Below are positions 13,344-26,132 of a DNA stretch of 64,000 bases, in pieces. Source of the stretch: a virus (taxonomy: Duplodnaviria > Caudoviricetes); IMG/VR virus record IMGVR_UViG_3300046671_000011, positions 1 through 64,000 of that record; one strand, 5' to 3'. The notes under the pieces were generated by a model. The model searched no databases, was not told where the DNA came from, and worked only from the letters and a program-made list of their open reading frames with translations. The stretch's first letter is position 1. Each line of letters opens with the position of its first letter. The translations under genes and the position numbers were made by a program.

Positions 13344-14909
13344 TTACTTTAAGAACTCGCTGATCAGTGCAGGAGTATTCGTATCGAACCCTACAATATT
13401 GAGCGTACCCAAATCTTTGGGATCCCCAATACTAAACCCTGTACTTGTCATTCCGACTACGATCAACTTCGCATTGATACCCGTCTTCTTACGGTAGTTA
13501 GCCAGAGCAACTTCAGGAGCCGTTCCCGAATTGGTCTCATTATCCGTATAGATAATGAAGGCGTCATACAGTCCCCCTGTTCGAAGGGCAAACTCGATTG
13601 CCGCCGCACAATTGGTGCTGCCAAAGTTACTCATCTGGACTTTTGCCATCGCCTGCTGTAGTGAGTCTCCCCGACCAATCCTAAGCTGAACAACTTGCTT
13701 TGAAAAGCCGACAATATTATAGTCTTTCTCTACACGAGCCGTGACCATACTCATACAGGCAGTACCCTGTGCAGGCGTAAACCCTGGAATTCCGGCAATC
13801 TCACCCGCTCCCATAGAGCCAGAGACATCAAGTCCCATCAGAATACGCTTACCTGTTGGCTGTACGTACTTGAATGATGAGAAGTAAGCCTGTTCGAGAG
13901 CGTCAATTATACGTGGGTTAACTTCCCATTCGCCGTGACCATAGTTCCCGTGTCCTGCCCCGTAAGTAATAGAAGCGGCTAAGATAGCAATCGGATGAAT
14001 TCGGGCCTTCTCAATCTTCTTTTCATCCTCGATAGTATTCACCACAAAGCGCGACTCTTCACTACCCATACCTAGTAAACCTGACTTGCTCATATTACCC
14101 AGGTTACGGATAATGGCGGTTAAGCCCATATTAGGCAGTAAAGCCTTCTGTACCTCGACAGAGTTTAAGAACTGAGTAGGAATAGCTTCACGAGGAAGCT
14201 GATACTCGGTTGCCAGTTGAGCGACTTCATGGGCATATTCCCGGCGCTTAGCAAACTCAAAGCCCAGGATAACCTTTGCGTCTTCCGAGATCCCATCAAT
14301 ACCACCTTTAGTTATCCAGTGGTAGACAGCTTGTCTTTCTGTCGAGGTGGGAATAGGATGTGAGAGCCGCAGCAAATCGCGGTGTGACCAGCCATCGCGT
14401 GACTGATATTTAACTACTTGGTAAGCGACATCACGGATAGATTTCTGATCATACCAGTTAGCTACCGCCCGACGCAGACCACGCCCCCAACCCCGCATAC
14501 TGTCGATGTAGGCTGCAAAGTGAAAGAGGTGAGTCCCAATACGGCAAACCTTCGGCAGTGCCTTCTCTGCATAAATACGTGAATATGCTCCTGGATGAGA
14601 GAATGCGATTGCTAAAGCCAGAATAGCAGGCTCATTCTTAGGAGCACGACCACTATCACTGATCTCAACAATTGTGCGAACTGTACGTTCAGGATCTTCG
14701 TTCAAACAGCGCCAAACGACTTTAGCAGCATCTACAGTCAACTTCTGCTCAGAGACATAGTAGGTTCCGCCTTCGCTGCCGAGGATTAAAAAGCGCTCAA
14801 GATATTTCCAGTCATCAATCTTGAAAGCTTCCCCGCCACCATTGTTAGGAACCTTGTTGGATGCAATCGAGGGCTTCTTGTTGAGGCCCAATGCTTTATT
14901 GTAGGTCAT
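13344..14909 (-). CDS. rsr: Ro60/Rsr RNA-binding protein (TROVE + vWA)
   Basis: RFLILGSEGGTY, GWSHRDLLRLSHP, LPREA, IRNLG, ARIHP, vWA MIDAS LDVSGSM and YTDNE; start MTYNK at 14909 follows RBS GGAAGG (track starts at 14933). Confidence 0.95.
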   Translation of the reverse strand: MTYNKALGLNKKPSIASNKVPNNGGGEAFKIDDWKYLERFLILGSEGGTYYVSEQKLTVDAAKVVWRCLNEDPERTVRTIVEISDSGRAPKNEPAILALAIAFSHPGAYSRIYAEKALPKVCRIGTHLFHFAAYIDSMRGWGRGLRRAVANWYDQKSIRDVAYQVVKYQSRDGWSHRDLLRLSHPIPTSTERQAVYHWITKGGIDGISEDAKVILGFEFAKRREYAHEVAQLATEYQLPREAIPTQFLNSVEVQKALLPNMGLTAIIRNLGNMSKSGLLGMGSEESRFVVNTIEDEKKIEKARIHPIAILAASITYGAGHGNYGHGEWEVNPRIIDALEQAYFSSFKYVQPTGKRILMGLDVSGSMGAGEIAGIPGFTPAQGTACMSMVTARVEKDYNIVGFSKQVVQLRIGRGDSLQQAMAKVQMSNFGSTNCAAAIEFALRTGGLYDAFIIYTDNETNSGTAPEVALANYRKKTGINAKLIVVGMTSTGFSIGDPKDLGTLNIVGFDTNTPALISEFLK

Positions 14910-14938
14910 TATTATTTTCCTTCCCGTGAACACACGGA

Positions 14939-15325
14939 TTAGTAAGCTAAACTAAACTCAAAAACGTAACCTGCCCATTTACCCTTATCATGGTCAATCA
15001 TACACCAAGCATAAGAATAACCGTTGATCTTTTCGATTGATCGAACTTCAACTTTGTCTCCTGGATTTAACCAGAAAAGGACTTCTTTGAGGTTCTGATC
15101 AAAGTAAACCTTCGTTTGTACAGTCGCAGTTGCCTTTATTTTCAGGCTATTTGCATAGACGCTCACAATTGCGCCTTTTGATAGCCAAGAATCTTTAGGC
15201 TTCTCTACATATTCAAGCTGAAGATACTTACCCTCATTGCTTGAATAGCTGTTAGTAATCTTTACCTTGTGATTATCTCCCCATCGGACTATGCGGTTAA
15301 GCAAAGGATGATCATAGTTTGGCAT
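14939..15325 (-). CDS. hypothetical, SH3-like C-terminus
   Basis: LNPGDKVEV...WAGYV pattern. Confidence 0.5.
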   Translation of the reverse strand: MPNYDHPLLNRIVRWGDNHKVKITNSYSSNEGKYLQLEYVEKPKDSWLSKGAIVSVYANSLKIKATATVQTKVYFDQNLKEVLFWLNPGDKVEVRSIEKINGYSYAWCMIDHDKGKWAGYVFEFSLAY

Positions 15326-15569
15326 AGGTCATAAACTCCTTTACATAGCCCATCACGGTAATCCCGCGCTTGGTCTCATAAACTATGTGCAAAACCCGAT
15401 CAAGGTCTGCCATGACTACAAGCTCGGCATCACGGGGAGCAACGACAACTACATTATCTTCATCGACAATTGAACACTCAGGAGAACTGTAGATTACACA
15501 TTCATCCAGAGCATATACTCTCTCGCCACTCTTATACATTTCTCTCCTTTTTTTCTTATGCGGGTTCAA
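15312..15569 (-). CDS. hypothetical, SH3-like
   Basis: beta-rich 85 aa ending MGYV. Confidence 0.45.
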   Translation of the reverse strand: MNPHKKKRREMYKSGERVYALDECVIYSSPECSIVDEDNVVVVAPRDAELVVMADLDRVLHIVYETKRGITVMGYVKEFMTYAKL

Positions 15570-15951
15570 TCCAATGCCAGGTGTCCGGCTCTGGTTCTGC
15601 CGAATAACGAATCTGATTAACCCATCGCATACCTTGAGAACTATTCAGGAATGCCTGTAGGGAGACAACCCCCATTGTAGAATTGTGAATCTCTACAATT
15701 ATCGCAGGCAAATGCTGTCCACGATCATAAGCACCACCAGACACATAATGCACCATGCGTCCTGGCGTTAAACCCTTCATGCTCACGTTCTCAGGAGCAG
15801 TCGGATTAAATACCTCGACAGGTTTTGAAAGATCGACTAATACCTGACTGTCAGGGATAATCGTAGTCTCTTCAGACGGAGGGGCTTGATCATCAGGATA
15901 ATCCTGCATTTCCGGTGTCGCTCCGGCGTTCTTCACACGCTTTAATGCCAT
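15556..15951 (-). CDS. conserved phage hypothetical protein
   Basis: PGRMVHYV...PAIIV...TWHW pattern common in phage proteins. Confidence 0.6.
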   Translation of the reverse strand: MALKRVKNAGATPEMQDYPDDQAPPSEETTIIPDSQVLVDLSKPVEVFNPTAPENVSMKGLTPGRMVHYVSGGAYDRGQHLPAIIVEIHNSTMGVVSLQAFLNSSQGMRWVNQIRYSAEPEPDTWHWIEPA

Positions 15952-15960
15952 TTTAGGTTC

Positions 15961-17991
15961 CTATACCTTACACAAACTATATCCACAAGATGTACAAGTC
16001 TCACATCCTTCAGCCATAATGAGTATCTCTCCACAATCAGGACACTTATCTTCCTTTATGATAGGCGTAAGTACCTGCTCACTTCGGCTTTGATCACGAT
16101 AGACCGTGCCACCTTTGCATCCTGCATTATACATGGTAATGTACAACTGTGCAACATCTTCTATTGTAGCTGTCGAGGGAAGGTTAACGGTTTTGGATAT
16201 ACTTGAGTCTACCCACTTCTGGATAGCTGCCTGAACTTTAACGTGCTCTTCAGGGGTAATTGTCTGTGCAGTTACGAAGTAATCAGGCAAGGCATAATTC
16301 GCGCTTTCTGGAAACTTCTGGATATAGTCATCAAGAACCTTAACATGCTCAAGATGCAATCCTAGCCGTGATTGGCGGGTATACCCGAACGCAAAAAAGG
16401 GTTCGATACCTGTAGAGGTTCCTACCATAGTTCCTATAGTTCCATTAGGAGCCTGCGTTAGCAGGGTAACATTTCGGAGACCTTTTTTGACCTTTTTACT
16501 AAGGTCAGCATGTTGCTGTAGGAAGCCACTCTTGAGGATTTTCGATTGATCGAACTCTGGAAACAGACCCTTTTCTTCTGCTAATTTAGTGCTAGTATCA
16601 TAAGCATTATTGGCAATCTCTCGGTAAAGAGTATCAATGAATTCAATACTCTCGTCCGACCCATAGCGGATACCTAATTGGATAAGCATATCAGCTAATC
16701 CCATTGTATTTAACCCGATCCGGCGCTCTTTTAGCTGCTGGTCGCGGTTTTGCTGTAGGGTGTAGGGATTGATGTCGATAATATTGTCAAGGAATCGGAT
16801 TGAAAGGCGGACAGTATGTTCAAGTTCTACCCAATCAACTTCTCCATCTTTTACAAACTTCGCAAGATTTATGGCTCCGAGGTTGCACACTCCCCACCCA
16901 GGTAAACTTTGCTCCCCACACGGATTGGTTGCGATTAAGCGGTCAAAGTAATAAGAATTACTCATTTCGTTAGCTTTATCTATAAACCAGATGCCGGGTT
17001 CGGCAGATGCCCAAGCACTCTCGGTTATCTGGTTCCATATCTCTCGCGCAGGCATACTCTTACTAGAAACTATCCTATGCATACTCCTCACCCATTTCCC
17101 GATATCCCCATCCCAATAGTTATCATAGTCTGGTTCTGTAGTATCAGGGAAGTAAAAGTGCCAAATAGTATCTTCCTCGACAGCTTTCATAAACTCATTA
17201 GAAAGTCCTACCGAGATGTTTGCATTTGTTAAATAGCCTGACTTTTTCTTGGCGTTAATAAACTCTATTAAGTCTGGATGCCAGTCTTCTAGGATAAGCA
17301 TCAAGGCTCCGCGACGTGACCCGCCTTGTTCGATGAGACCTGTTGTATTGCTATAGATAGATCCCCAAGAGACGGCTCCTGAGCTTCTACCATTTACTCC
17401 TCTGACAATTGACTGTCGAGGACGAAGAGTAGACAGATTAATCCCGACTCCACCACCTCTAGACATAATCTCAGTCATCTGACCTAAAGTTTCCAAGATA
17501 CCTAGACGGCTATCTTTTGGAGAAGGAAGTACATAGCAATTGTAAGCACTTAAGACTTGACCACTACCCACTTGGGCCATAATGCGACCCGCAGGCACGA
17601 ACTTCCAATCCTTTAAGATTTTATAGAACTCTACTTCATACTTTCTCATAAGAGCTAGAGAATTCTCAGCGACAGATGCTCCGGCAGCGACTCGATGCCA
17701 AATATGTTCAGGAGACCACTCAATCGGACGGTCACAACTCTCGATAGGAAGAGTAATCTCCTCTAAGTTAGTACCCCATAGAGTACAAGTAACATTCGAT
17801 CCGTCGAAATCGGTGACGGTTCCAAGTTCACGTTGATTGCTATCTGGATTGATAAGGCATATCGCAATATCTCCAGGAACAAAAGACCGCGTTAAGTCCT
17901 TGAGACTATAGCGGTCTAACATTATTTTATATCCGAGGATAGAAAGACCATGTGTATTACCCGTTTGGATAAACTCGGTGTCGGGGATCAT
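15961..17991 (-). CDS. nrdJ: class II (B12-dependent) ribonucleotide reductase
   Basis: PAGRI, NCYV, RGGGVG, RRGALM, TNPCGEQ, CNLGAINL, APNGT, DSSISKT and C-terminal CPDC...CTSC; no beta subunit gene nearby. Confidence 0.93.
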   Translation of the reverse strand: MIPDTEFIQTGNTHGLSILGYKIMLDRYSLKDLTRSFVPGDIAICLINPDSNQRELGTVTDFDGSNVTCTLWGTNLEEITLPIESCDRPIEWSPEHIWHRVAAGASVAENSLALMRKYEVEFYKILKDWKFVPAGRIMAQVGSGQVLSAYNCYVLPSPKDSRLGILETLGQMTEIMSRGGGVGINLSTLRPRQSIVRGVNGRSSGAVSWGSIYSNTTGLIEQGGSRRGALMLILEDWHPDLIEFINAKKKSGYLTNANISVGLSNEFMKAVEEDTIWHFYFPDTTEPDYDNYWDGDIGKWVRSMHRIVSSKSMPAREIWNQITESAWASAEPGIWFIDKANEMSNSYYFDRLIATNPCGEQSLPGWGVCNLGAINLAKFVKDGEVDWVELEHTVRLSIRFLDNIIDINPYTLQQNRDQQLKERRIGLNTMGLADMLIQLGIRYGSDESIEFIDTLYREIANNAYDTSTKLAEEKGLFPEFDQSKILKSGFLQQHADLSKKVKKGLRNVTLLTQAPNGTIGTMVGTSTGIEPFFAFGYTRQSRLGLHLEHVKVLDDYIQKFPESANYALPDYFVTAQTITPEEHVKVQAAIQKWVDSSISKTVNLPSTATIEDVAQLYITMYNAGCKGGTVYRDQSRSEQVLTPIIKEDKCPDCGEILIMAEGCETCTSCGYSLCKV

Positions 17992-18074
17992 TATGTAATT
18001 AACCTTTCAGGGAAAAACGATAGTCTTGATTCTACATCAAAACCGCTAAAGAGGACGAGACAACATGTTAAGGT

Positions 18075-18302
18075 TTACTCATCAACTACCTTTATAAGAG
18101 TCTCTATGGAAAAGACAATCTCCTGAAGTGGACGGAAACCGACGATTGCATGGGTAATATGCCCGCCCTCACCATAAACTCGTAAAACTGTCCCTACATC
18201 ATAAAGTCGAGGAAGGCTAACATAGAAGGATATATAGTAAGCAGGAATACTCTCGATAGCCTTCTGATCAATAATTACTACATCCATAGGTTTAATATTC
18301 AT
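18075..18302 (-). CDS. hypothetical protein
   Basis: 75-aa ORF coupled to the upstream gene. Confidence 0.5.
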   Translation of the reverse strand: MNIKPMDVVIIDQKAIESIPAYYISFYVSLPRLYDVGTVLRVYGEGGHITHAIVGFRPLQEIVFSIETLIKVVDE

Positions 18303-18631
18303 AGCCAGTAATCATCCTTTAGACTCTTGAGAGCCTTAATTTCTTCTACATCTTGATCGTTCAGTAAGAACCATTCGTTTTTAACAAGCTTATCTTTATA
18401 TCGAGTGTGTAAAGCCGCCTCTGCCCGCTCATATCCTGAACAGGGTATATGATGGAGTAAGACAGCCTCAAATGGTAAAGTTCGATAGATCGAATTGAAG
18501 CGGGTATATACATCCCTCGAACAGCCAATCTTATAGTATTTGTCAGCCTTAATCAGATAGACACCTGAAGCCGTCGCAGTTGGATACTGTCGAGGAGGTT
18601 GATCGCTAAAGATTTGATAGAGATTGATCAT
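18299..18631 (-). CDS. GIY-YIG (T5orf172/MUG113-like) nuclease domain
   Basis: GVYLI...YKIGCS...R...E..LH...KNEWF. Confidence 0.85.
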   Translation of the reverse strand: MINLYQIFSDQPPRQYPTATASGVYLIKADKYYKIGCSRDVYTRFNSIYRTLPFEAVLLHHIPCSGYERAEAALHTRYKDKLVKNEWFLLNDQDVEEIKALKSLKDDYWL

Positions 18632-18933
18632 TTATCTCTGCGTAATTCTACGAATTTCTCGAACTCTTCATCACTGAGATTGATGTATTCATCTTTAGCT
18701 ACAAAGTCAGGTATATCTACTGGATATCTGACATTAATACCTACCTCCATAAGCTTTGTATATCTTGTCCAAGTCTTTAGGTTTGCTTTAGCCTCAGCAA
18801 TAGCAAAAGGATTATCAAGGTTCTTGACTAAATAGATATAAGCCTCAAGATATCTATCCCGCTCAAATTGGACAGCACTTAACATCTCATAGACATCCAT
18901 TATTTTAGTAGCTCCTGTAGCTCTTCTATACAT
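18628..18933 (-). CDS. hypothetical protein
   Basis: 101-aa ORF. Confidence 0.5.
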   Translation of the reverse strand: MYRRATGATKIMDVYEMLSAVQFERDRYLEAYIYLVKNLDNPFAIAEAKANLKTWTRYTKLMEVGINVRYPVDIPDFVAKDEYINLSDEEFEKFVELRRDK

Positions 18934-19316
18934 AAACGGTGATGCTCAACAAGCGCGTGCCATTTCGACAGATCGAATACTCCCTGACTATCAGGGTTCT
19001 CGGCAAGAAAACGGATATTACCCTCGACATATAGCAATGCTGTCTTATGCCCATCTATCCGATCCTGAATGGTATCATTCATCTGTCGAAAAGCAGTAAA
19101 TTTTCTTATGATCTCATCCTGTTGACCATCATAGTATTTACCAAAATAAGTAACAACCTCGACAGGCTTCTTATCTTTAATGCCAATGACGATATAAAAG
19201 CGATCATCTTGCCAATAAGATAACCAGGTTTGAAACTCGTCATTCTGCCAGTTTTCTAGAGATGAGTAATCATTTCTTAAGACTTCTTCACTAAGAGTTA
19301 AAGTGCTATACGTCAT
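18900..19316 (-). CDS. hypothetical protein
   Basis: 138-aa ORF. Confidence 0.5.
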   Translation of the reverse strand: MTYSTLTLSEEVLRNDYSSLENWQNDEFQTWLSYWQDDRFYIVIGIKDKKPVEVVTYFGKYYDGQQDEIIRKFTAFRQMNDTIQDRIDGHKTALLYVEGNIRFLAENPDSQGVFDLSKWHALVEHHRLCIEELQELLK

Positions 19317-19980
19317 CCTTAAACTCCCTAAAGCATAGCTTCCACATTACCCGCTCGCCATGTTGATCATATATAACGGGTTGAGTCTTAGCTACAATTC
19401 CTTCAGCTTCTACTTTACTCTGACTATCAAGTATTGCAGTCATAGAAAAAGGGATAATCTCATGCATAGCATCTTTAGTCTTAGGAATTTCTTGGATATA
19501 TCCAAGAAAAGGGACTTTTGGGATATGAAGCGAGTCGCAAATCTGCGTACAAGTGTCAGGACTCACCCATTTGGTTTCGATACCAAAGGCAATATCGAAG
19601 CAGCGAAATTTCTTTTCCTGTGAATAGGTCATTCCCATAGGCGACTGAATACTTCCACCATAACCTTCACCATAGAAGGTAATAGCCCAATCTTCTTCGC
19701 TCTGAAGGAAATCCGCACGAATTCTAGGCATTTCGGGTTCAAAGATACTATGAATATGGTCATTCAAGTCTTTAGGGATCTGAGCATTATCTCCACGTCC
19801 CTTAACATGAAGGACGCCTTTATAGTCAACCGTGACGCGCATATTCATGCCGTCAATCTTCTCGGTTATCTGCCAACGCTTAATAAGTTCCGTCTCTGGC
19901 AGGCGATTAATACCAAAGGCCAATAAGTTATTGCTTTTATCACGACTGAAGACAGTCTCGATAGATGGATATTTCTTCAT
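19306..19980 (-). CDS. RNA ligase, Rnl2-like nucleotidyltransferase
   Basis: Motif I TEKIDGMN, GR, III FYGEGYG, IIIa FRCFDI, IV EGIV, V MWK; N-terminal KYPSI. Confidence 0.85.
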   Translation of the reverse strand: MKKYPSIETVFSRDKSNNLLAFGINRLPETELIKRWQITEKIDGMNMRVTVDYKGVLHVKGRGDNAQIPKDLNDHIHSIFEPEMPRIRADFLQSEEDWAITFYGEGYGGSIQSPMGMTYSQEKKFRCFDIAFGIETKWVSPDTCTQICDSLHIPKVPFLGYIQEIPKTKDAMHEIIPFSMTAILDSQSKVEAEGIVAKTQPVIYDQHGERVMWKLCFREFKDDV

Positions 19981-20010
19981 CTGTAAGTCTCGCTTTCATT
20001 TAAGATTCAA

Positions 20011-20085
20011 TAGGCTTGATGGGATTTGAACCCATACTTTACTGGTTTTAAGCCAGTTTCCTCTGCCAAGTTGGGATACAAGCCC
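20011..20085 (-). tRNA. trnL: tRNA-Leu(TAA), short variable loop
   Basis: Acceptor GGGCTTG/CAAGCCT+A; anticodon arm ACTGG-CTTAAAA-CCAGT; T arm ATGGG-TTCAAAT-CCCAT. Confidence 0.88.
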
Positions 20086-20104
20086 GGAGTGTAGGGCGTT
20101 AGCC

Positions 20105-20985: not shown

Positions 20986-21229
20986 CTAGCACTAGCCGTT
21001 TACCTACCGAGACTTTTAGGGAACCATCGCGGTAAAAACCTTCGACAGTACCACTCCCTGTCTGAGCAAAGAGAGAGGGATCATGCCAGATGATCCTACT
21101 CCCCTTCTGGATGTGTGTCTCGGAGATTGAATGGCTTTTCCCACTGGATAGTAGCGCCGTTATTGTCCCTAACAACTCCACGAGCATAATATAGCTCCCT
21201 GCATACCCCACATGAAAAAACGATACCAT
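20918..21229 (-). CDS. hypothetical protein
   Basis: ORF with Sm/SH3-like C-terminus; real start probably internal. Confidence 0.45.
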   Translation of the reverse strand: MVSFFHVGYAGSYIMLVELLGTITALLSSGKSHSISETHIQKGSRIIWHDPSLFAQTGSGTVEGFYRDGSLKVSVGKRLVLVDRKDVIGYEYIRSVEKISESY

Positions 21230-21317
21230 TATGATCGCTATTTACCATGTCAAGTTTATGATCAAAATCGCATATAGCGATACTAAGTAAGTCGGGAAGA
21301 TTATACGTCATTTTTTG

Positions 21318-21390
21318 TACCCTCGACAGGATTCGAACCTGCAACAATTATTTTAGAAGAATAATACTCTATCCGTTGAGCTACGAGGGT
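21318..21390 (-). tRNA. trnR: tRNA-Arg(TCT)
   Basis: Acceptor ACCCTCG/CGAGGGT+A; D arm GCTC/GAGT; anticodon arm TTATT-CTTCTAA-AATAA; T arm GCAGG-TTCGAAT-CCTGT. Confidence 0.92.
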
Positions 21391-21629
21391 ATGTCTAACT
21401 TACCTTGTAACCAATACCATAATCCCGCGCAGCCTTCAGGAGTTAAATAAACCCCATTATCTACACTATCTCTTATCCAACCCATACGAAGGAATTTGCC
21501 AAGCACTTTGGGATCAATCCCAAAAGGCGAAGAAAAGGTATTACGAGCATCCTTAAATCCAAAGTGGATATTAAGAAGGTCTCGATAATCATTATCGCTA
21601 ATAGTCTTCGTCGTCATCTTCGGCTGCAT
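21381..21629 (-). CDS. hypothetical, wHTH-like
   Basis: LRMGWI...YLTPEG wing motif; stop overlaps the tRNA-Arg 5' end. Confidence 0.5.
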   Translation of the reverse strand: MQPKMTTKTISDNDYRDLLNIHFGFKDARNTFSSPFGIDPKVLGKFLRMGWIRDSVDNGVYLTPEGCAGLWYWLQGKLDIPS

Positions 21630-21918
21630 CTATAACTGCTACTGCAATCTTGCCCCAAGTGAACTTCATTTCGGGGTTGAGAGATTTCCAGGGAGGTAAC
21701 ATGGCCTTTTTGTCTTCGCAATATACATAGGCTTCATATGCTACCTGAGCAAGAGATCTCTTTTCCAGCAGATCTGTAGTCTCATAGCTATAGCCGTCTG
21801 GTAAAACCTGCTCTAAAAGGTGGTTGTTAAATATATTGTCTACGACTTTTTCAGCGCTCTTCTCATCTTCAGCGTTGACTTCCATCTTAACTTCGACAAT
21901 TACCGTATAAGTATTCAT
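21598..21918 (-). CDS. hypothetical protein
   Basis: 106-aa ORF. Confidence 0.55.
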   Translation of the reverse strand: MNTYTVIVEVKMEVNAEDEKSAEKVVDNIFNNHLLEQVLPDGYSYETTDLLEKRSLAQVAYEAYVYCEDKKAMLPPWKSLNPEMKFTWGKIAVAVIDAAEDDDEDY

Positions 21919-22337
21919 TCAATCCTACTCCCATAGGTTTTTAGCATCTTTATAATCTCGTCAGCAAGTTCTTGATCGCTAACCCGCTCGCTTTCGGGCA
22001 AATCTGAATAGTGTGACCACATCTGCCGCTTCCAACGTTCAACACTCTCGACAGGCATTGTCCAACTACCATCAGAATTAAATGTACCCTTACTGAACAT
22101 CCAGGTCATCCAGCGTGACCAGATGTCATGCTGAAGATTAGATAGTCTCTCTCGTATGCTTATTGTATTTTCAGTGAATCCTAGCCCAAACTCGGTTGCG
22201 GCATCTTCGCGTTCAATTAGATGACTTTTAAGTAGAGACATAACTTCGTTATCGTTGTGAGATGCGAATTCCCATGCGTCTTCACTATTCTTATATTGCT
22301 TAGCATACTCGGAACCGATTACTCTAAAGCTTCTCAT
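21915..22337 (-). CDS. hypothetical protein
   Basis: 140-aa ORF. Confidence 0.55.
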   Translation of the reverse strand: MRSFRVIGSEYAKQYKNSEDAWEFASHNDNEVMSLLKSHLIEREDAATEFGLGFTENTISIRERLSNLQHDIWSRWMTWMFSKGTFNSDGSWTMPVESVERWKRQMWSHYSDLPESERVSDQELADEIIKMLKTYGSRIE

Positions 22338-23076
22338 ATTTTCCCTCTATTAGCAAATTCTCTGCACACCAAGCGATAATTCCATCACTTGTTTGAATCT
22401 TTACCCACTGATACCAGATAAGACCAAGAGGTTCAAGTATTCGATCATTATCAAGCACCGTGCAGTTTTCGAAAGGATTCATTTGTCCTATTCTCTTGCC
22501 CGCAGGACTTTCACGAAGATTGACGACTCCAACTGTATGAGCATCTCCTATAGAAAGATTATCTCTAAAGCAGATACCCGTAAAAGGTGCTGGTGAAAGG
22601 GCTAATCCGGCTTTGTACTCTTGTATAGGTATATGGAAGTTATCACCCTTATTGAGATTAGATCCCCAAAAGTCAGGATCCTTCACGATTATATACTCAT
22701 TAGGTTCATAACCAACCACAAGTACAAAGTGTCCGCTTTTATCTGAGAGATTTTGGCGCTTAGAGATAGACCCATAATGTATAAGTGCAATCACTGGTCT
22801 CTCATGGTCGATCTCAGAGATAGTCTTCTCTAATAAAAGCGCCTTATCTACATAAGATCGAATACCATATCGAGAGAGTAAAGCTACGAGTTCATAGTTG
22901 GTTAATCCCTGATCGTTAGTTGCCAATCGGGTTTGGCGTGAAAGGCTATCAGTGGTGCTGACTTGTATACCTTTACCTGCTAAATACATACGAACACAAG
23001 CAGGCCCGCAGTCATTCCGATATCTCTTGGCATCAGGAATCTCTTGAGAAAAATAAGGATAGTTAAGTAGTAGCAT
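22324..23076 (-). CDS. C39-like peptidase with SH3 domain (candidate cell-wall hydrolase)
   Basis: NDCGPAC catalytic Cys, GHFVLVVGY, DP; C-terminal SH3 VNLRESP...WVKI..DG..AW. Confidence 0.78.
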   Translation of the reverse strand: MLLLNYPYFSQEIPDAKRYRNDCGPACVRMYLAGKGIQVSTTDSLSRQTRLATNDQGLTNYELVALLSRYGIRSYVDKALLLEKTISEIDHERPVIALIHYGSISKRQNLSDKSGHFVLVVGYEPNEYIIVKDPDFWGSNLNKGDNFHIPIQEYKAGLALSPAPFTGICFRDNLSIGDAHTVGVVNLRESPAGKRIGQMNPFENCTVLDNDRILEPLGLIWYQWVKIQTSDGIIAWCAENLLIEGKYEKL

Positions 23077-23250
23077 CTGATCCTTTCTGGATAAACGGTA
23101 TTTAACGTGTAACCGTTACCACGTTCGACAAGACTCCCTTTTCAGAGTCAGGACAACTTTCTACTACTCGTCGGTAGTCCGCCAGCGCGATTTTCCCTTG
23201 TTCGTTACGTCTAACATTAGGCTCCTGATGCACCTAACCAAATGTCGAAG

Positions 23251-23337
23251 CGGAGAGTGTAGGAATTGAACCTACTCAGGCTTTTACCCCTGGCTACTCG
23301 TTAGCAGTGAGACCCCTTACCAATCGGGCAACTCTCC
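23251..23337 (-). tRNA. trnS: tRNA-Ser(GCT)
   Basis: Acceptor GGAGAGT/ACTCTCC+G; loop CTGCTAA; long variable arm; T arm GTAGG-TTCAATT-CCTAC; anticodon stem imperfect. Confidence 0.85.
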
Positions 23338-23341
23338 ATAA

Positions 23342-23428
23342 AGGATGGCGAGGGGATCGAACCCCCGTGCGCTTTTAATCGCATCGGTAGTTTTCAAGAC
23401 TACAACCTTACCGCTCGGTCAGCCATCC
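23342..23428 (-). tRNA. trnS: tRNA-Ser(TGA)
   Basis: Acceptor GGATGGC/GCCATCC; anticodon arm GTAGT-CTTGAAA-ACTAC; long variable arm; T loop TTCGATC. Confidence 0.9.
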
Positions 23429-23726
23429 ATGTAATATAAGTCATTAACATCGCGCTTATTAACCAACTAACCCCAATATAAGTAAATAAAGGGGCATCTT
23501 CATTCTCGACAGCAGCTATGATAAAGCTAATAGCGATATACCATAGTATCAGTGTTAGTGATAAACGCACTATCTTACTTGATAATTTGAGGAGCAAGCC
23601 GCAATACCATCTCGAAAGTGAATAATGTAAGCAGCATACATGCACCTGTAGGCCACTTTACCTGATTGAAAAAGCGCCATACACCACCTGCAAGGGCAGC
23701 AGCAACAAAGATAATTACTATTGTGA

Positions 23727-23999
23727 TCATTTTTTCTTATCCTCTAGTATCTCTTTAACTTCTACTTGGTTCTGAATGAATGTTAGGGACTGTCGAGGGT
23801 AAAGCAATTGTATCCACCATGCATCTTTAGCCCGATCCTGTCGTCCTACCCACCCGCGCCCCTCGTTAGACGTAAAACTCCATATAGGAATATCACGCTT
23901 AAAAAGGAGATTAAACTCTACCTGTGTAAATCCTCGATCAGTAAGTAATTTCTCGCACAAAGACCGATTTTCGAGTTCCCTCTGATTGTTCACGTCCAA
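23727..23999 (-). CDS. hypothetical protein
   Basis: 90-aa ORF. Confidence 0.5.
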   Translation of the reverse strand: MDVNNQRELENRSLCEKLLTDRGFTQVEFNLLFKRDIPIWSFTSNEGRGWVGRQDRAKDAWWIQLLYPRQSLTFIQNQVEVKEILEDKKK

Positions 24000-24288
24000 C
24001 CTTCCATAATTCTATCATATTCTCAAGTTCCTTGAGCGCGGACTTGAAGTTTCCAGTTAAGAATACAAAGGTATATTCTTCATCTACTATATACCGAAAG
24101 ACAATCTGTTGTAGCTTATTGGCAATATCGTCAGGGTTATGCCGCTCTCCTACAGTGACTTCAAACTCTCGACAGATCCCTGGAGAAGTTAATGTTACCC
24201 AATAGACTGCCCGTTCAGTAAACCTTACATACTCTGGTAAAGAGGATAAGATACCCTTATAGACTGGAAACCCATCATTATCAAGCAT
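23938..24288 (-). CDS. hypothetical protein
   Basis: 116-aa ORF with RBS GAGG. Confidence 0.55.
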   Translation of the reverse strand: MLDNDGFPVYKGILSSLPEYVRFTERAVYWVTLTSPGICREFEVTVGERHNPDDIANKLQQIVFRYIVDEEYTFVFLTGNFKSALKELENMIELWKVGREQSEGTRKSVFVREITY

Positions 24289-24394
24289 AGAACCTCATAT
24301 TTCGATTGATCGAAAGTGGCCTCGGCGTTTGCCAAAAGGCCACGATCTTAGGAGGATGTCGTCACGTATACTGCCCGTCTACAGGATACGCTAG

Positions 24395-24467
24395 TAGGAA
24401 GAGAAGGAGTCGAACCCTCATAGTAGCTTTATAAGAACTACGTCCTAGACCGTTGAACGATCTTCCC
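24395..24467 (-). tRNA. trnI: tRNA-Ile(TAT)
   Basis: Acceptor GGGAAGA/TCTTCCT+A; D arm GTTC/GGAC; anticodon arm TAGTT-CTTATAA-AGCTA; T arm GAGGG-TTCGACT-CCTTC. Confidence 0.85.
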
Positions 24468-24632
24468 ATGCGGGGAGGTTAAGCGCGCATACTCCCCTTG
24501 ACCTTCTGTAGCTTAGTTCCATCACCTAACACCATAAGGGGGAACTTCTTACATGAGACTCAGTTATTTGGTGATTACTGAGGAGATCATGTCCGGTATA
24601 TCTAGGGTTTTGACCGGAACTCCACTACATAG

Positions 24633-24703
24633 AGCGGATACTCAGACTCGAACTGAGATCAATAGTTTGGAAGACTATAGCTCTACCGTTGAGCTATACC
24701 CGC
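24633..24703 (-). tRNA. trnG: tRNA-Gly(TCC)
   Basis: Acceptor GCGGGTA/TATCCGC+T; anticodon arm ATAGT-CTTCCAA-ACTAT; T arm CTCAG-TTCGAGT-CTGAG. Confidence 0.93.
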
Positions 24704-25018
24704 TTACTTTCCGTAATGTTCTTGCAGCATCTTATTACCAAGAGGTGTTATCTCAAACCATTGATGAGGCTCATTATGTTGATCGGTATTGAGACTCAAA
24801 AACCAGCCAGCTTTTCGGGCTAATTCTTTTATTGCCGCCATCTCATTAGGTGTCGGATAGTTTTGAAGAGGTACTCGGATACGATTGATGTCATCTGCTT
24901 TTCTAATCGCTTGATTGATTAGTCTCTTGTACTCAGACAGGTCAACGTTTCTTAGGATTTTAGCCGCCTCTTCAGCGCTAATCAGATTTTCGTTTGGTTC
25001 CATCTGCTCAAGTGTCAT
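24704..25018 (-). CDS. hypothetical protein
   Basis: Likely start MTLEQ at 25018 after RBS GAGGGAG; the longer track ORF overlaps a tRNA remnant. Confidence 0.55.
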   Translation of the reverse strand: MTLEQMEPNENLISAEEAAKILRNVDLSEYKRLINQAIRKADDINRIRVPLQNYPTPNEMAAIKELARKAGWFLSLNTDQHNEPHQWFEITPLGNKMLQEHYGK

Positions 25019-25107
25019 CGGTTTCTTCTCCCTCGATATATAAACAAGACGAACAAAAGGTAGAATTACGGGTTTTAATGCTTCCACTACACCAAAAGAC
25101 ACCGAGA

Positions 25108-25168
25108 TGCCCCTGTGGGATTCGAACCCACGCCTAATCAGATAATTGATAACGTAATTCAAAACGGC
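25108..25168 (-). pseudogene. degenerate tRNA remnant lacking a normal anticodon arm
   Basis: Perfect T arm GTGGG-TTCGAAT-CCCAC then AGGGGCA; AATT/AATT D-like stem; only a TCT-GATT-AGG mini-hairpin at the anticodon position. Confidence 0.5.
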
Positions 25169-25177
25169 TCGTCTTAG

Positions 25178-25249
25178 CTGCCAAAGTAGGACTCGAACCT
25201 ACAACCCATCGGTTAACAGCCGATTGCTCTGCCATTGAGCTATTTAGCA
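25178..25249 (-). tRNA. trnN: tRNA-Asn(GTT)
   Basis: Acceptor TGCTAAA/TTTGGCA+G; anticodon arm ATCGG-CTGTTAA-CCGAT; T arm GTAGG-TTCGAGT-CCTAC. Confidence 0.93.
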
Positions 25250-25425
25250 TTAAAAGGGGGAGGCGGTGAGATCCCCCTTTAAGTATTTATAAAACTTTTG
25301 GTGCTATCACCGTTAGCGCACCCTTAAAACTACACCTCGGTAGAAAGATAGGTGCTCTATCTTTTTTGTTCAATGCTAGGTGTCATTCGCCTCAAGTTAG
25401 TACAAGACTTTGAACACTTCGCATG

Positions 25426-25498
25426 TCCTTCCTGATGGACTCGAACCACCAACAGCCAAGTTTACAGCCTGACGTTCTTCCAATTGAACTAAGGAAGG
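25426..25498 (-). tRNA. trnY: tRNA-Tyr(GTA), C1-G72, short variable loop
   Basis: Acceptor CCTTCCT/AGGAAGG+A; anticodon arm TCAGG-CTGTAAA-CTTGG; T loop TTCGAGT. Confidence 0.85.
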
Positions 25499-25502
25499 AA
25501 AA

Positions 25503-25575
25503 TGGCGATGAAGGGATTCGAACCCATGACCTCCAGGCCAATTGACCCGGCGCTCTACCACTGAGCTACATCCCC
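25503..25575 (-). pseudogene. tRNA-like RNA with aberrant 8-nt anticodon loop
   Basis: GGGGATG-TA-GCTC-AGTGGTA-GAGC-G-CCGGG-TCAATTGG-CCTGG-AGGTC-ATGGG-TTCGAAT-CCCTT-CATCGCC-A; G3.G70 mismatch; no U33. Confidence 0.7.
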
Positions 25576-25579
25576 ATAT

Positions 25580-25665
25580 ATCGGACAAGTGTTGAAAAAG
25601 ATATTGGCAGGTTTCCCTGCTCCACTTCATTTGGTAAATAGATAACCTTTTTCTGTCGGCCCGAT
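25580..25665 (-). ncRNA. Y-RNA-like RNA 4
   Basis: 5' ATCGGGCCGACAGAAAAAGGTTATCT pairs with 3' CAATATCTTTTTC...GTCCGAT; internal GCAGG-GAAA-CCTGC hairpin; shares boxes with the other array members. Confidence 0.6.
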
Positions 25666-25686
25666 CTTTCTTAAGTGTCTGGATAA

Positions 25687-25776
25687 AAGGCGTCTAGAGG
25701 TAAGTGGAATTTCGATTTCGCTCTCCAGGGAGAGTTACTTCTAAAATTTTTGGCTGATAACTCTAAACAACGACCC
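25687..25776 (-). ncRNA. Y-RNA-like RNA 3
   Basis: 5' GGGTCGTTGTTTAGAGTTATC pairs with 3' CTCTAGA-CGCCTT; internal CTCTC-CCTG-GAGAG acceptor-like hairpin. Confidence 0.6.
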
Positions 25777-25792
25777 AAACTTTGTAAAAAAA

Positions 25793-25869
25793 CTGCTATT
25801 CATCGTCTTTGTGGATAGAACGACTCAGCGCGCGCACATGACTCGCGTTAGACTATTGTCGAATAGCAG
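25793..25869 (-). ncRNA. multibranch RNA between Y RNAs 2 and 3
   Basis: 9-bp closing stem CTGCTATTC/GAATAGCAG enclosing three small hairpins, followed by a U-tract. Confidence 0.45.
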
Positions 25870-25881
25870 ATTTATGGATGA

Positions 25882-25979
25882 AAGTCGCTAAAGAATATTG
25901 CTCGTCCAGTTGAGTTTACTCTCTTGTAGTGGAGAGCATAGGATTCGAACCTATAACAGATAACCTTTAACTACGACCC
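25882..25979 (-). ncRNA. yrlA: YrlA-type Y RNA (circularly permuted tRNA mimic)
   Basis: GGGTCG-TAG-TTAAAG-GTTAT-CTGTT-[T arm ATAGG TTCGAAT CCTAT]-[GCTCTC CACTACAA GAGAGT]-AA-[D arm ACTC AACTGGAC GAGC]-AATATT-CTTTAG-CGACTT; 5' and 3' ends pair. Confidence 0.85.
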
Positions 25980-25985
25980 ACATAT

Positions 25986-26005
25986 AAAAGCCTGCGTTAG
26001 CAGGC
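25986..26005 (-). terminator. intrinsic terminator between Y RNA 1 and YrlA
   Basis: GCCTGC-TAAC-GCAGGC followed by TTTT. Confidence 0.7.
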
Positions 26006-26031
26006 ATACATCACTGTTCGAATGTTAAAAA

Positions 26032-26095
26032 CCGGATAAGGATTGCGGAGGGATATTGGTTTACTGATAGTAGATAACCCTCAACTTCGACCCGA
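26032..26095 (-). ncRNA. Y-RNA-like RNA 1 (short, no tRNA domain)
   Basis: Starts GGGTCGAAG (exact GNCGAAG Ro-binding motif), then TTGAGGGTTATCT; GAGGG pairs with CCCTC after CAATAT; directly downstream of a consensus promoter. Confidence 0.7.
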
Positions 26096-26103
26096 TGTGT
26101 AAC

Positions 26104-26132
26104 AGTATAACACTCTGTTCTTTTTTAGTCAA
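26104..26132 (-). promoter_or_regulatory. sigma70-type promoter driving the Y RNA/tRNA cluster
   Basis: TTGACT-N17-TATACT with TG extension; predicted start ~26096-26098. Confidence 0.85.

What the first reader, a model, noticed from the sequence alone, without database searches (positions are those of the whole stretch)
13344..26132. Phage Ro60 + RNA ligase + Y RNA array + tRNAs: candidate integrated RNA surveillance/repair system
Seen in sequence: a full-length TROVE-vWA Ro60 (13344-14909), an Rnl2-type ligase (19306-19980) ending 30 nt from the first tRNA, eight tRNAs, and four Y-like RNAs (25580-26095). Established: bacterial Rsr binds Y RNAs and often sits with the RtcB ligase in RNA-damage operons; T4 Rnl repairs nuclease-cut tRNA. 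Here RtcB is replaced by an ATP-dependent ligase and the Y RNAs lie ~11 kb from ro60, inside the tRNA cluster. Inference: a counter-defence against host anticodon nucleases, or a way to redirect host PNPase. No Pnkp-type end-healing enzyme is visible in the window.
Basis: partly seen in the sequence, partly recalled or inferred. Interest (0 to 1): 0.85.

Follow-up and report, generated by a model that had tools for sequence, protein, structure and literature searches.

The report
Phage Ro60 with Y RNA array
An uncultured phage carries its own Ro60 RNA-binding protein, five matching Y RNAs made together with its tRNA genes, and a small separate RNA ligase; this is a good new example of a known kind of phage module, and the evidence that the parts form one repair machine is weak.

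Summary
The parts are real. The window is a 73.9-kb viral contig with no close relative. It encodes a full-length Ro60/Rsr (13344-14933, minus strand) and a 224-aa Rnl2-like ligase with the nucleotidyltransferase domain only (19306-19980). It has eight normal tRNAs and one aberrant tRNA.

There are five Y RNAs, not four: A-D at 25580-26096 and a fifth at 25047-25174. Two are YrlA-like. The array sits behind a near-consensus sigma-70 promoter.

The shared 5' box occurs nowhere else in the genome. It pairs with a 3' strand to give the Ro60-binding helix with a bulged C. The same RNAs sit beside Ro60 in related viral contigs and directly upstream of rsr in 16 of 18 bacterial loci.

- 7 of 80 viral contigs with this ligase family also have Ro60.
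- A complete Ro60 phage has no RNA ligase (PF09414 or RtcB).
- No end-healing enzyme was found in the record.
- Phage Ro60/Y RNA modules next to tRNAs, hijacking of host PNPase, and TROVE plus ligase repair sets are already published.

Verdict: a new member of a known kind, with Ro60 10 kb from its Y RNAs. Earlier notes of this scan on the same genome described the array; none was on other DNA.

The parts
13344..14933 (-). Ro60/Rsr orthologue (TROVE ring plus vWA domain with MIDAS motif), 529 aa from a GTG start
   Evidence: Pfam TROVE and vWA_Ro60. NF041674 scores 511 bits, below its equivalog cut-off of 900. Full-length alignments to 2nvo, 9nen and 1yvp.
19306..19980 (-). Rnl2-like ATP-dependent RNA ligase, nucleotidyltransferase domain only (motif I is EKIDG with K41; EGIVAK; K214)
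26104..26132 (-). Sigma-70-type promoter TTGACT-17-TATACT with a TG extension. The predicted start lies at the 5' end of Y RNA A.
   Evidence: 10 of 12 matches, the best site in the 8-kb scan.
26031..26096 (-). Y RNA A: small stem-loop type, 5' GGGUCGAAG box, ends in a U run
   Evidence: (49 bits with R1, though A is a training sequence of that model). Weak match to the nematode sbRNA family RF01656.
25990..26005 (-). GC-rich hairpin followed by UUUUAU, terminator-like, between units A and B
25873..25982 (-). Y RNA B: YrlA type, with a T arm, a closed acceptor-like hairpin and a D arm inside the Ro60-binding stem
   Evidence: Rfam YrlA 32.2 bits, E 3.8e-5 in the local scan. Alignment A3.
25783..25875 (-). 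Structured RNA of about 90 nt closed by a 13-bp stem and ending in U7. Function unknown, possibly a terminator.
   Evidence: (inverted repeat I1).
25678..25779 (-). Y RNA C: the same lower stem and AGUUAUC box, with a distinct apical domain
25580..25665 (-). Y RNA D: both strands of the canonical Ro60 helix (GGGC-C-GA / UU-GUCC). Its 3' end lies 3 nt before the next tRNA-like gene.
   Evidence: Fold z-score -3.8. (48.7 bits; D is a training sequence of R1).
25502..25576 (-). Aberrant tRNA-like gene: 8-nt anticodon loop, G3-G70 mismatch, 59% GC
   Evidence: 54 bits to the tRNA model, with non-canonical pairs flagged.
25425..25498 (-). tRNA-Tyr (GUA)
25177..25249 (-). tRNA-Asn (GUU)
25047..25174 (-). 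Y RNA E: a fifth unit of YrlA type. It has the variant box GAGCCG...CGUUAUC, an 8-bp lower stem, a T arm and a D-arm-like hairpin.
   Evidence: Sequence, alignment with YrlA-like units of relatives, and a fold of -37.9 kcal/mol with z -2.1.
24632..24703 (-). tRNA-Gly (UCC)
24394..24467 (-). tRNA-Ile (UAU)
23250..23428 (-). tRNA-Ser (UGA) and tRNA-Ser (GCU) in tandem
21317..21390 (-). tRNA-Arg (UCU)
20011..20085 (-). tRNA-Leu (UAA), 30 nt upstream of the ligase start codon

Best explanation
The phage makes its own Ro60-Y RNA ribonucleoprotein. One strong sigma-70-type promoter fires into a row of Y RNAs (A-D), which is followed by tRNAs and then a fifth Y RNA (E). I infer that host RNase P, RNase Z or RNase E cuts the precursor into single RNAs.

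Each Y RNA closes with the same lower helix: 5' NNNGGGY, a bulged C, then GA, paired with UU-RUCCN'N'N'. This is the Ro60 docking site known from animals and Deinococcus. The apical parts all differ. Two are tRNA-shaped (YrlA type) and three are other stem-loops, so the five RNAs probably couple Ro60 to different partners.

The most likely job is the one known for Ro60/Y RNA/PNPase complexes (RYPER) and for Thermus phage phiLo: the RNP tethers or sequesters a host exoribonuclease such as PNPase, and so changes which structured RNAs are degraded during infection.

The Rnl2-like ligase is best read as a separate accessory gene. It is probably expressed with the tRNA cluster and can seal 3'-OH/5'-phosphate nicks in duplex RNA or tRNA stems. 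It belongs to the same broad RNA-maintenance tool kit but is not a fixed partner of Ro60.

Shown here: the identity of the protein families, the Y RNA architecture, and its linkage to Ro60 across genomes. Inferred: binding, processing, the PNPase partner and the ligase substrate.
For: Ro60 is full length, with an intact MIDAS motif.

Y RNA motif and structure:
- The 5' box is unique to the array in this genome.
- The box was found without reference to any 3' strand, and 13 of 14 occurrences have a perfect 7-bp partner downstream. Shuffles give a mean of 4.4 and a maximum of 10 in 2000.
- In 11 small units, 9 lower-stem pairs are 96% paired and 4 pairs show compensatory changes. No shuffle out of 500 reaches the observed covariation, and slid registers fall to 41-52% paired.
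- Upper stems differ in sequence but stay paired.

Linkage to Ro60:
- The same box occurs in 2-4 copies next to Ro60 in related viral contigs.
- Model R1, built from phage units, finds new hits upstream of Ro60 in further viral loci and in Streptomyces phage Comrade's tRNA cluster.
- R1 finds 31 hits in 16 of 18 bacterial rsr loci, all on the rsr strand and directly upstream.

Other points:
- Units B and E have the YrlA architecture.
- A phage Ro60 binds phage Yrl RNAs and host PNPase in vitro (PMC12135203).
- The ligase is Rnl2-like. Its co-occurrence with Ro60 is low.
Against: - There are no expression or binding data.
- Every Rfam match of the window's Y RNAs is below the gathering score.
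- The array lies 10.1-11.2 kb from ro60, whereas relatives keep it within about 1-4 kb.
- Hairpins with U runs inside the array could stop transcription, so a single transcript is not certain.
- The host, and whether it has PNPase, is unknown.
- Locus L023 packs an Rnl2-like ligase, tRNAs, Y RNAs and Ro60 into 6.3 kb on one strand. TROVE is found in about 9% of contigs with this ligase, against about 0.7% of records in the phage collection. Some functional link to the ligase therefore remains possible.
- The record is only 82% complete.
Confidence: 0.6

Rival explanations
1. Integrated tRNA repair machine. The Ro60/Y RNA complex recognises nuclease-cut or misfolded tRNAs and hands them to the Rnl2-like ligase. 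Together they act as a counter-defence against host anticodon nucleases, with the ATP-dependent ligase taking the place of RtcB in the bacterial rsr-rtcBA operon.
For: - All parts lie on one strand within 12.8 kb, and the ligase starts 30 nt after tRNA-Leu.
- L023 has ligase, tRNAs, Y RNAs and Ro60 within 6.3 kb.
- Streptomyces phage Comrade and its close relatives carry both genes.
- TROVE is about ten times more frequent among contigs with this ligase than in the phage collection overall.
- Other Ro60 phages carry RtcB.
- TROVE plus RNA ligases have been proposed as phage RNA repair sets (PMC7824862).
Against: - 73 of 80 contigs with this ligase lack TROVE.
- 7 of 8 Ro60 relatives lack a PF09414 ligase, including a complete genome.
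- No kinase, phosphatase, 2H enzyme or RtcB is present to heal cyclic-phosphate and 5'-OH ends.
- The ligase lacks the Rnl2 C-terminal domain, which T4 Rnl2 needs for full nick joining (established knowledge on Rnl2(1-249), PDB 1s68).
- The ligase has no conserved neighbours.
Confidence: 0.2
2. Decoy set. The tRNA-shaped Y RNAs (B, E) and the aberrant tRNA with an 8-nt anticodon loop act as baits that soak up host tRNA-targeting nucleases or tRNA-sensing defence proteins. Ro60 serves mainly to stabilise these RNAs.
For: - Two units copy the tRNA elbow (T and D arms) but have no anticodon arm.
- An abnormal tRNA directly follows unit D.
- A Ro60-like protein of phage Bas63, encoded next to that phage's tRNAs, counters the ppl defence system (PMC11482910).
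- Loss of Ro60 lowers Y RNA levels in cells (PMC4726728).
Against: - The same YrlA-type and small Y RNAs sit upstream of rsr in free-living bacteria, where no phage decoy role applies.
- Three of the five units have no tRNA-like part.
- There is no evidence that anticodon nucleases bind RNAs that lack an anticodon loop.
Confidence: 0.1
3. The ligase serves DNA replication rather than RNA repair. It would seal nicks with an RNA 3' end at primer-DNA junctions, or substitute for a DNA ligase. In this reading it has nothing to do with Ro60 or the tRNAs.
For: - No ATP- or NAD-dependent DNA ligase domain is found in the record.
- The gene lies in a block of replication and nucleotide-metabolism genes: RNR, ThyX, dCTP deaminase, primase, helicase, SSB and RNase H.
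Against: - The best sequence and fold matches are RNA ligases, T4 Rnl2 first and then Naegleria and archaeal RNA ligases.
- The protein has no OB or other DNA-clamping domain.
- Most phages of this size use the host's LigA.
- A tRNA lies within 1 kb of the ligase in 9 of 80 related loci.
Confidence: 0.1

Closest known systems
Bacterial Rsr (Ro60) with YrlA/YrlB-type Y RNAs, as in Salmonella Typhimurium, Mycobacterium smegmatis and 22 phages (Chen et al. 2014, PMC4201824)
   Same: - A full-length TROVE-vWA protein.
- Several Y RNAs on the same strand upstream of the gene.
- At least one Y RNA with a T arm, a closed acceptor hairpin and a D arm inside a Ro60-binding stem.
- The GNCGAA-type 5' strand (unit A reads GUCGAAG).
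   Different: - The Y RNAs lie 10-11 kb from ro60 rather than within 4 kb.
- They are interleaved with tRNA genes.
- There are five of them.
- Both strands of the lower helix are recognisable.
- There is no RtcB/RtcA operon.
- Rfam YrlA scores are below the gathering threshold.
Thermus phage phiLo Ro60 with Yrl1/Yrl2 and host PNPase (PMC12135203)
   Same: A phage-encoded Ro60, phage-encoded small Y-like RNAs with a CGAA-containing stem-bulge-stem, no phage PNPase, and a proposed hijack of host PNPase.
   Different: - This Ro60 is far closer to cellular Rsr and Ro60 (E about 1e-115) than to phiLo Ro60 (E 1e-5).
- It has five RNAs, including tRNA mimics, set in a tRNA cluster.
- Nothing has been tested biochemically here.
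Streptomyces phages of the Comrade/Gilson group (Stanwilliamsviridae, about 130 kb)
   Same: - Ro60 inside a tRNA cluster.
- A Y-like RNA between tRNA-Trp and tRNA-Ile.
- A roughly 210-aa RNA ligase of the same family elsewhere in the genome.
   Different: - Ro60 is only about 43% identical and the ligase about 29%, with no DNA similarity.
- There the ligase is 33 kb from Ro60, against 4.4 kb here.
- The host is an actinomycete, while this contig's host is unknown.
T4 RNA ligase 2 (Rnl2; PDB 1s68, 2hvq)
   Same: The nucleotidyltransferase domain with motifs I, III, IV and V, a similar N-terminus, and the best match by both sequence profile and fold.
   Different: - It is 224 aa against 334 aa, and the C-terminal domain is absent.
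- It belongs to a stable family of stand-alone proteins of 206-258 aa.
T4 Pnkp plus Rnl1 tRNA repair against PrrC, and the bacterial rsr-rtcBA operon
   Same: A phage or cell carrying an RNA ligase together with tRNA-related RNAs, with a proposed answer to RNA damage.
   Different: - There is no Pnkp, Rnl1, RtcB or RtcA.
- The ligase cannot use cyclic-phosphate or 5'-OH ends without healing.
Metazoan Y RNAs and nematode stem-bulge RNAs (Rfam RF00019, RF01656)
   Same: - A lower stem with a bulged C (GGUC-C-GA / UU-GACU against GGGY-C-GA / UU-RUCC).
- A variable upper stem.
- A (G)UUAUC box at its apical end.
- Unit A, and more clearly the small Y RNAs of relative L009, match these models (19.6, 36.2, 31.8 and 27 bits).
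   Different: - All scores are below the gathering thresholds.
- The RNAs are made from a bacterial-type promoter.
- Homology as opposed to convergence on the Ro60 site is not settled.

Membership tests
Ro60/Rsr (TROVE family) | TROVE/HEAT-repeat ring followed by a vWA domain, full length | tested here: met
   Pfam TROVE and vWA_Ro60. Residues 23-527 align to 2nvo residues 22-529, and likewise to 9nen and 1yvp.
Ro60/Rsr (TROVE family) | MIDAS motif (DxSxS) in the vWA domain | tested here: met
   LDVSGSM aligns with the same motif of Rsr and human Ro60.
Ro60/Rsr (TROVE family) | NCBIfam equivalog score for bacterial Rsr (NF041674, cut-off 900 bits) | tested here: not met
   511 bits. It is a family member but not an equivalog by NCBI's strict threshold.
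Y RNA | 5' and 3' ends pair into a stem holding the conserved Ro60-binding helix with a bulged C | tested here: met
   The GGGY/RUCC pair covaries (C-G in 7 units, U-A in 4).
Y RNA | Encoded next to the Ro60 gene (within 4 kb in Chen et al. 2014) | tested here: not met
   The array lies 10.1-11.2 kb upstream of ro60 on the same strand. The same RNA type does lie next to Ro60 or rsr in viral and bacterial relatives.
Y RNA | Bound by Ro60 in vivo or in vitro | not testable with these tools
   Needs RIP or CLIP, or a gel-shift assay.
Y RNA | Rfam gathering score (YrlA 69, Y_RNA 38, sbRNA RF01656 38 bits) | tested here: not met
   Unit B scores 32.2 bits to YrlA and unit A 19.6 bits to RF01656. 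C, D and E have no match.
YrlA subclass | tRNA-like domain in the order T arm, closed acceptor-like hairpin, D arm, inside the Ro60-binding stem | tested here: met
   Unit B by alignment to the YrlA model. Units B and E by alignment with YrlA-like RNAs of relatives, and by fold.
Rnl2-type RNA ligase | Covalent nucleotidyltransferase motifs, including the motif I lysine | tested here: met
   K41 (EKIDG), E105, E193/G194 and K214 are invariant in 37 homologues and align to T4 Rnl2.
Rnl2-type RNA ligase | Rnl2-specific C-terminal domain | tested here: not met
   The protein has 224 aa and the alignment stops at T4 Rnl2 residue 232-233 of its 334 aa. Family members found have 206-258 aa. The downstream ORF 18900-19316 has no relatives or informative fold.
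Rnl2-type RNA ligase | Seals 3'-OH/5'-phosphate nicks in duplex RNA | not testable with these tools
   Needs an enzyme assay.
T4-type tRNA repair (Pnkp plus ligase) | End-healing kinase-phosphatase encoded with the ligase | tested here: not met
   No AAA_33, metallophosphoesterase or 2H match in the 73.9-kb record. No P-loop or HxT/S motifs in the small ORFs of the interval. The record is 82% complete.
rsr-rtcBA RNA repair operon | RtcB ligase encoded with Rsr and the Y RNAs | tested here: not met
   No RtcB match in the record.
RYPER-like complex (Ro60/Y RNA/PNPase) | A Y RNA loop binds PNPase and tethers it to Ro60 | not testable with these tools
   The host is unknown, and I did not search the record for a PNPase gene. 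The role is inferred from D. radiodurans, Salmonella and phage phiLo (PMC4201824, PMC12135203).

The most novel reading that the evidence does not exclude
The small Y RNAs of this phage and its relatives, and of many bacterial rsr loci, may be true homologues of animal Y RNAs and nematode stem-bulge RNAs. They keep three features: both strands of the Ro60 helix, a covarying upper stem, and the (G)UUAUC box. In animals that box has been tied to initiation of DNA replication. If the homology is real, the box is an ancient module that came with Ro60 and predates eukaryotes. A phage could then carry a whole panel of such adaptors, five here, to aim one Ro60 at several host targets.
Probability: 0.3. 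Interest if true: 0.65.

Novelty: new member of a known kind. Interest (0 to 1): 0.42.

Why it matters
Phage Ro60 is annotated in hundreds of genomes, but its RNAs are almost never annotated and its role in infection is unknown. This contig gives a clean, compact test set: one Ro60, five distinct Y RNAs behind a promoter that should fire in E. coli, tRNAs, and a minimal ligase.

The covariance model built here finds Y RNAs beside Ro60 in phages and in distant bacterial phyla that the Rfam YrlA model misses. It could therefore be used to annotate Y RNAs widely. The resemblance to animal Y RNAs bears on whether bacterial and animal Y RNAs share an origin.

The proposed Ro60-ligase repair machine would matter for phage counter-defence, but the present data do not carry it.

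Tried and rejected
- DNA search of the interval against 50,697 phage records: no match.
- Close ligase relatives in viral contigs with a single-protein query: none. The family profile was needed instead.
- The ligase as a single sequence against PDB: no hit. The profile was needed.
- The idea that ORF 18900-19316, which overlaps the ligase stop, is a split Rnl2 C-terminal domain or an end-healing enzyme: no Pfam, NCBIfam or PHROG match, no relatives in 110 loci, and a poor Atlas model. Rejected for lack of evidence.
- Conserved neighbours of the ligase in 80 loci: the largest group covers only 11 loci and has no Pfam match. A phosphoesterase follows the ligase in 4 loci. The rest are portal, methylase, HNH and similar proteins.
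- Weak YrlA match at 25450-25548: rejected as the known tandem-tRNA false positive described by Chen et al. 2014.
- The promoter-like site at 25788-25760 lies inside unit C and is no better than chance.
- My first fixed-spacing motif search missed three units because the spacer is 8 or 9 nt. This was corrected.
- MAFFT could not align the upper stems, so upper-stem covariation rests on single folds, not on a formal count.
- Codon usage shows the phage uses UUA, AGA, AUA and GGA often. This fits tRNA supplementation, but without a host genome it decides nothing.

Full report
**What the window is.** The window is the first 64 kb of a 73,860-bp IMG/VR viral record that CheckV rates 82% complete. 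It has about 43% GC. From 1 to about 50 kb nearly all genes are on the minus strand. They include RecA, a DnaB-type helicase, a primase, a ribonucleotide reductase, ThyX, a dCTP deaminase, two SSBs and an RNase H. No phage record resembles the interval at the DNA level.

**Ro60.** ORF 13344-14933(-) has 529 aa and matches TROVE and the Ro60 vWA domain. It aligns end to end with D. radiodurans Rsr (2nvo, 3e-115) and with human and Xenopus Ro60 (about 1e-107), and the MIDAS motif is conserved. It is much closer to cellular Ro60 than to the one solved phage Ro60, from phiLo (E 1e-5). In the phage collection, 368 records encode a relative, all under 60% identical and mostly actinophages annotated 'Ro-like RNA binding protein'. 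A phage Ro60 is therefore not new in itself.

**Ligase.**
- ORF 19306-19980(-) has 224 aa and matches PF09414 and phrog_548.
- Homologues found have 206-258 aa, so the family consists of small stand-alone proteins.
- The invariant residues are those of covalent nucleotidyltransferases: K41 in EKIDG, E105, E193/G194 and K214.
- The family profile hits the T4 Rnl2 adenylyltransferase domain (1s68, 1.5e-17), far ahead of Naegleria Rnl at 3.5e-5.
- A confident AF2 model (pLDDT 92.8) has T4 Rnl2 as its best fold match.
- The alignment ends at Rnl2 residue about 232 of 334, so the Rnl2 C-terminal domain is missing. From established work on Rnl2(1-249), that truncation can adenylylate itself and seal a pre-adenylylated nick but is poor at complete nick joining.
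- 'Rnl2-type' is thus right for the catalytic domain only.

**tRNAs.** ARAGORN and Rfam agree on nine genes. The anticodons are Leu-UAA, Arg-UCU, Ser-GCU, Ser-UGA, Ile-UAU, Gly-UCC, Asn-GUU and Tyr-GUA. The ninth is an aberrant tRNA at 25502-25576 with an 8-nt anticodon loop and an acceptor-stem mismatch. The normal ones read A/U-ending codons that the phage uses often. This is the usual picture of codon supplementation.

**Y RNA array in the window.**
- The box GGGYCG-N8-9-RGTTAT occurs exactly four times in the whole genome, all on the minus strand between 25641 and 26093. Shuffled genomes give 0.11 on average.
- Each box starts a unit whose first seven bases pair with a strand 57-110 nt downstream.
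- The lower helix reads GGGY, a bulged C, then GA, against UU-RUCC. This is the arrangement of the Ro60 site in animal Y RNAs.
- Unit B (25873-25982) aligns to Rfam YrlA over the whole model (32 bits, E 3.8e-5 locally, gathering score 69), with a T arm, a closed hairpin and a D arm.
It has the variant box GAGCCG...CGUUAUC, an 8-bp lower stem and a T arm, and it aligns with the YrlA-like RNAs of relatives.
- A TTGACT-17-TATACT promoter, the best site in the 8-kb scan, would start transcription at the first base of unit A's stem.
- Unit D ends 3 nt before the next tRNA-like gene, so processing by tRNA enzymes is a natural inference.
- Two hairpins with U runs lie inside the array (26005-25990 and 25875-25783). 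One transcript is therefore likely but not certain.

**Comparative support for the Y RNAs.** The comparative evidence makes the Y RNA call solid despite the low Rfam scores.
- Nine viral contigs encode a Ro60 that is 32-47% identical.
- In four of them the same box occurs in two to four copies on the Ro60 strand, right beside the gene.
- The box was found without reference to any 3' strand, and 13 of 14 occurrences have a perfect 7-bp partner downstream. Shuffles give a mean of 4.4 and never more than 10 in 2000.
- In an alignment of 11 small units, the nine lower-stem pairs are 96% paired and four pairs show compensatory changes. No shuffle out of 500 reaches the observed covariation, and slid registers drop to 41-52% paired. 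The outermost pairs and the Y-R pair were partly selected for, which is why I ran the unbiased test.
- A covariance model built from these units finds further hits upstream of Ro60 in L003, L005, L006, L011 and L023. It also finds one in Streptomyces phage Comrade, between tRNA-Trp and tRNA-Ile, 1.9 kb upstream of its Ro60.
- In 18 bacterial rsr loci (Poribacteria, Gemmatimonadota, Propionibacteriaceae, Isosphaeraceae and others) the model gives 31 hits in 16 of the loci. All are on the rsr strand and directly upstream of rsr, often as arrays of three or four.
- Multi-copy Y RNA arrays upstream of rsr are therefore general. This phage keeps the order and strand, but 10 kb of tRNAs and genes lie in between.

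**Is the ligase part of the same system?**
- Of 80 viral contigs with this ligase family, seven encode a TROVE protein, and 3 of 32 that are at least 90% complete.
- Of eight Ro60 relatives searched whole, one has PF09414 ligases (two, of a larger type). A complete genome with terminal repeats has none and no RtcB either.
- RtcB is present in 2 of 14 Ro60 viral records.
- Comrade (129,015 bp) has both genes, 33 kb apart. A 125,726-bp complete record, the same length as phage Annadreamy, has the ligase but no TROVE.
- About 9% is well above the roughly 0.7% of phage records with Ro60.
- A tRNA lies within 1 kb of the ligase in 9 of 80 loci.
- No neighbour family recurs in more than 11 loci, and a phosphoesterase follows the ligase in 4 loci.
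- The best case for coupling is L023. There an Rnl2-like ligase, eight tRNAs interleaved with three Y RNAs, and a Ro60 gene interrupted by stops occupy 6.3 kb of one strand.
- In the present record there is no AAA_33-type P-loop kinase of the kind in Pnkp, no metallophosphoesterase, no 2H enzyme and no RtcB. The ligase could therefore only join 3'-OH/5'-phosphate ends. It could not join the products of PrrC, RloC or colicin-type nucleases.
- There is also no DNA ligase domain, which keeps a replication role open.

**What is already known.**
- Chen et al. 2014 reported YrlA RNAs near Ro60 in 254 bacteria and 22 phages, and discarded candidates more than 4 kb away.
- Iyer et al. 2021 list TROVE proteins with a tRNA-like partner among phage RNA repair sets, together with RtcB, Rnl1/Rnl2, kinases and phosphoesterases.
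- A 2025 study showed that Thermus phage phiLo Ro60 binds two phage Yrl RNAs and host PNPase and attenuates PNPase.
- A 2024 preprint found that a Ro60-like protein of phage Bas63, encoded just upstream of its tRNAs, counters the ppl defence system. It also suggested that some of the annotated tRNAs are Y RNAs.

**A point that may be new.** The small Y RNAs keep a (G)UUAUC box at the top of the upper stem's 5' strand, in this window and in the relatives.
- Two small Y RNAs of relative L009 score 36.2 and 31.8 bits against the nematode stem-bulge RNA family (gathering score 38). One of them scores 27 bits against metazoan Y_RNA.
- Unit A of the window scores 19.6 bits against the stem-bulge family.
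- A review states that UUAUC is conserved in vertebrate Y RNAs and in stem-bulge RNAs and is needed for their replication activity. It also states that bacterial Y RNAs are not homologous to the vertebrate clades.
- The resemblance seen here reopens that question, but convergence on the Ro60 site is not excluded.

**Verdict.** The best reading is a phage-borne Ro60-Y RNA particle whose RNAs are made with the tRNA cluster, plus a loosely associated stand-alone RNA ligase. The single integrated repair machine remains a minority possibility. The finding is a new member of a known kind. Its interest is moderate and comes mainly from the array, the unusual distance between Ro60 and its RNAs, and the animal-like features of the small Y RNAs.

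Noticed in passing
window 25502-25576 (-): A tRNA-like gene with good D and T arms but an 8-nt anticodon loop (UCAAUUGG), a G3-G70 mismatch and 59% GC, against 41-49% for four of its neighbours. ARAGORN calls a four-base anticodon. It could be a pseudo-tRNA, a decoy or a frameshift suppressor.
   Followed up: partly
window 25783-25875 (-): A structured RNA of about 90 nt between Y RNAs B and C. It is closed by a 13-bp stem, ends in U7, and has no Ro60 box. It may be a terminator or an unknown small RNA.
   Followed up: partly
L003:9068-9198 and L009:9717-9836: Next to Ro60 in two related viral contigs lie tRNA-shaped RNAs of about 120-130 nt. The acceptor stem, D arm and T arm are intact, but a Y-type box (GGGCCG...UUAUC) sits where the anticodon arm should be. 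This is the inverse nesting to YrlA. Rfam calls them weak tRNA or tRNA-Sec.
   Followed up: partly
L007:10001-18710: A related viral contig of low GC has Ro60, then at least six Y RNAs (mostly YrlA type), then a full tmRNA (168 bits), a tRNA and an RtcB ligase, all on one strand within about 9 kb. The RtcB position was computed from contig coordinates.
   Followed up: partly
L023:14449-16269: The Ro60 gene of this ligase-tRNA-Y RNA-Ro60 cluster is split into two ORFs, and the TROVE match reads through five stop codons. It may be a broken gene, an inserted element or a sequencing problem.
   Followed up: no
L104:4554-5000 and other bacterial rsr loci (L098-L111): Poribacteria and other bacterial genomes carry arrays of three or four Y RNAs directly upstream of rsr. 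The model built from phage units detects them. The Rfam YrlA model was not run on these loci.
   Followed up: partly
L009:9837-9985: Small Y RNAs of a related phage nearly reach the Rfam thresholds of the nematode stem-bulge RNA family and the metazoan Y RNA family. They share the UUAUC box that is linked to DNA replication in animals.
   Followed up: partly
window 41530-42153 (-): A 207-aa phage protein with a ribosomal L7/L12 C-terminal domain (Pfam 8e-8). This is unusual for a phage and is possibly a translation-factor decoy or recruiter.
   Followed up: no
window 18299-18631 (-): A 110-aa ORF two genes downstream of the ligase, with a GIY-YIG/T5orf172-like signature (GVYLI...YYKIG) and weak PHROG matches, one to an endonuclease family. 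It is probably a remnant of a homing endonuclease.
   Followed up: no
window 22324-23076 (-): A peptidase C39-like domain fused to a bacterial SH3 domain, encoded in the middle of the tRNA cluster. It is likely a cell-wall or peptide-processing enzyme rather than an RNA gene.
   Followed up: no
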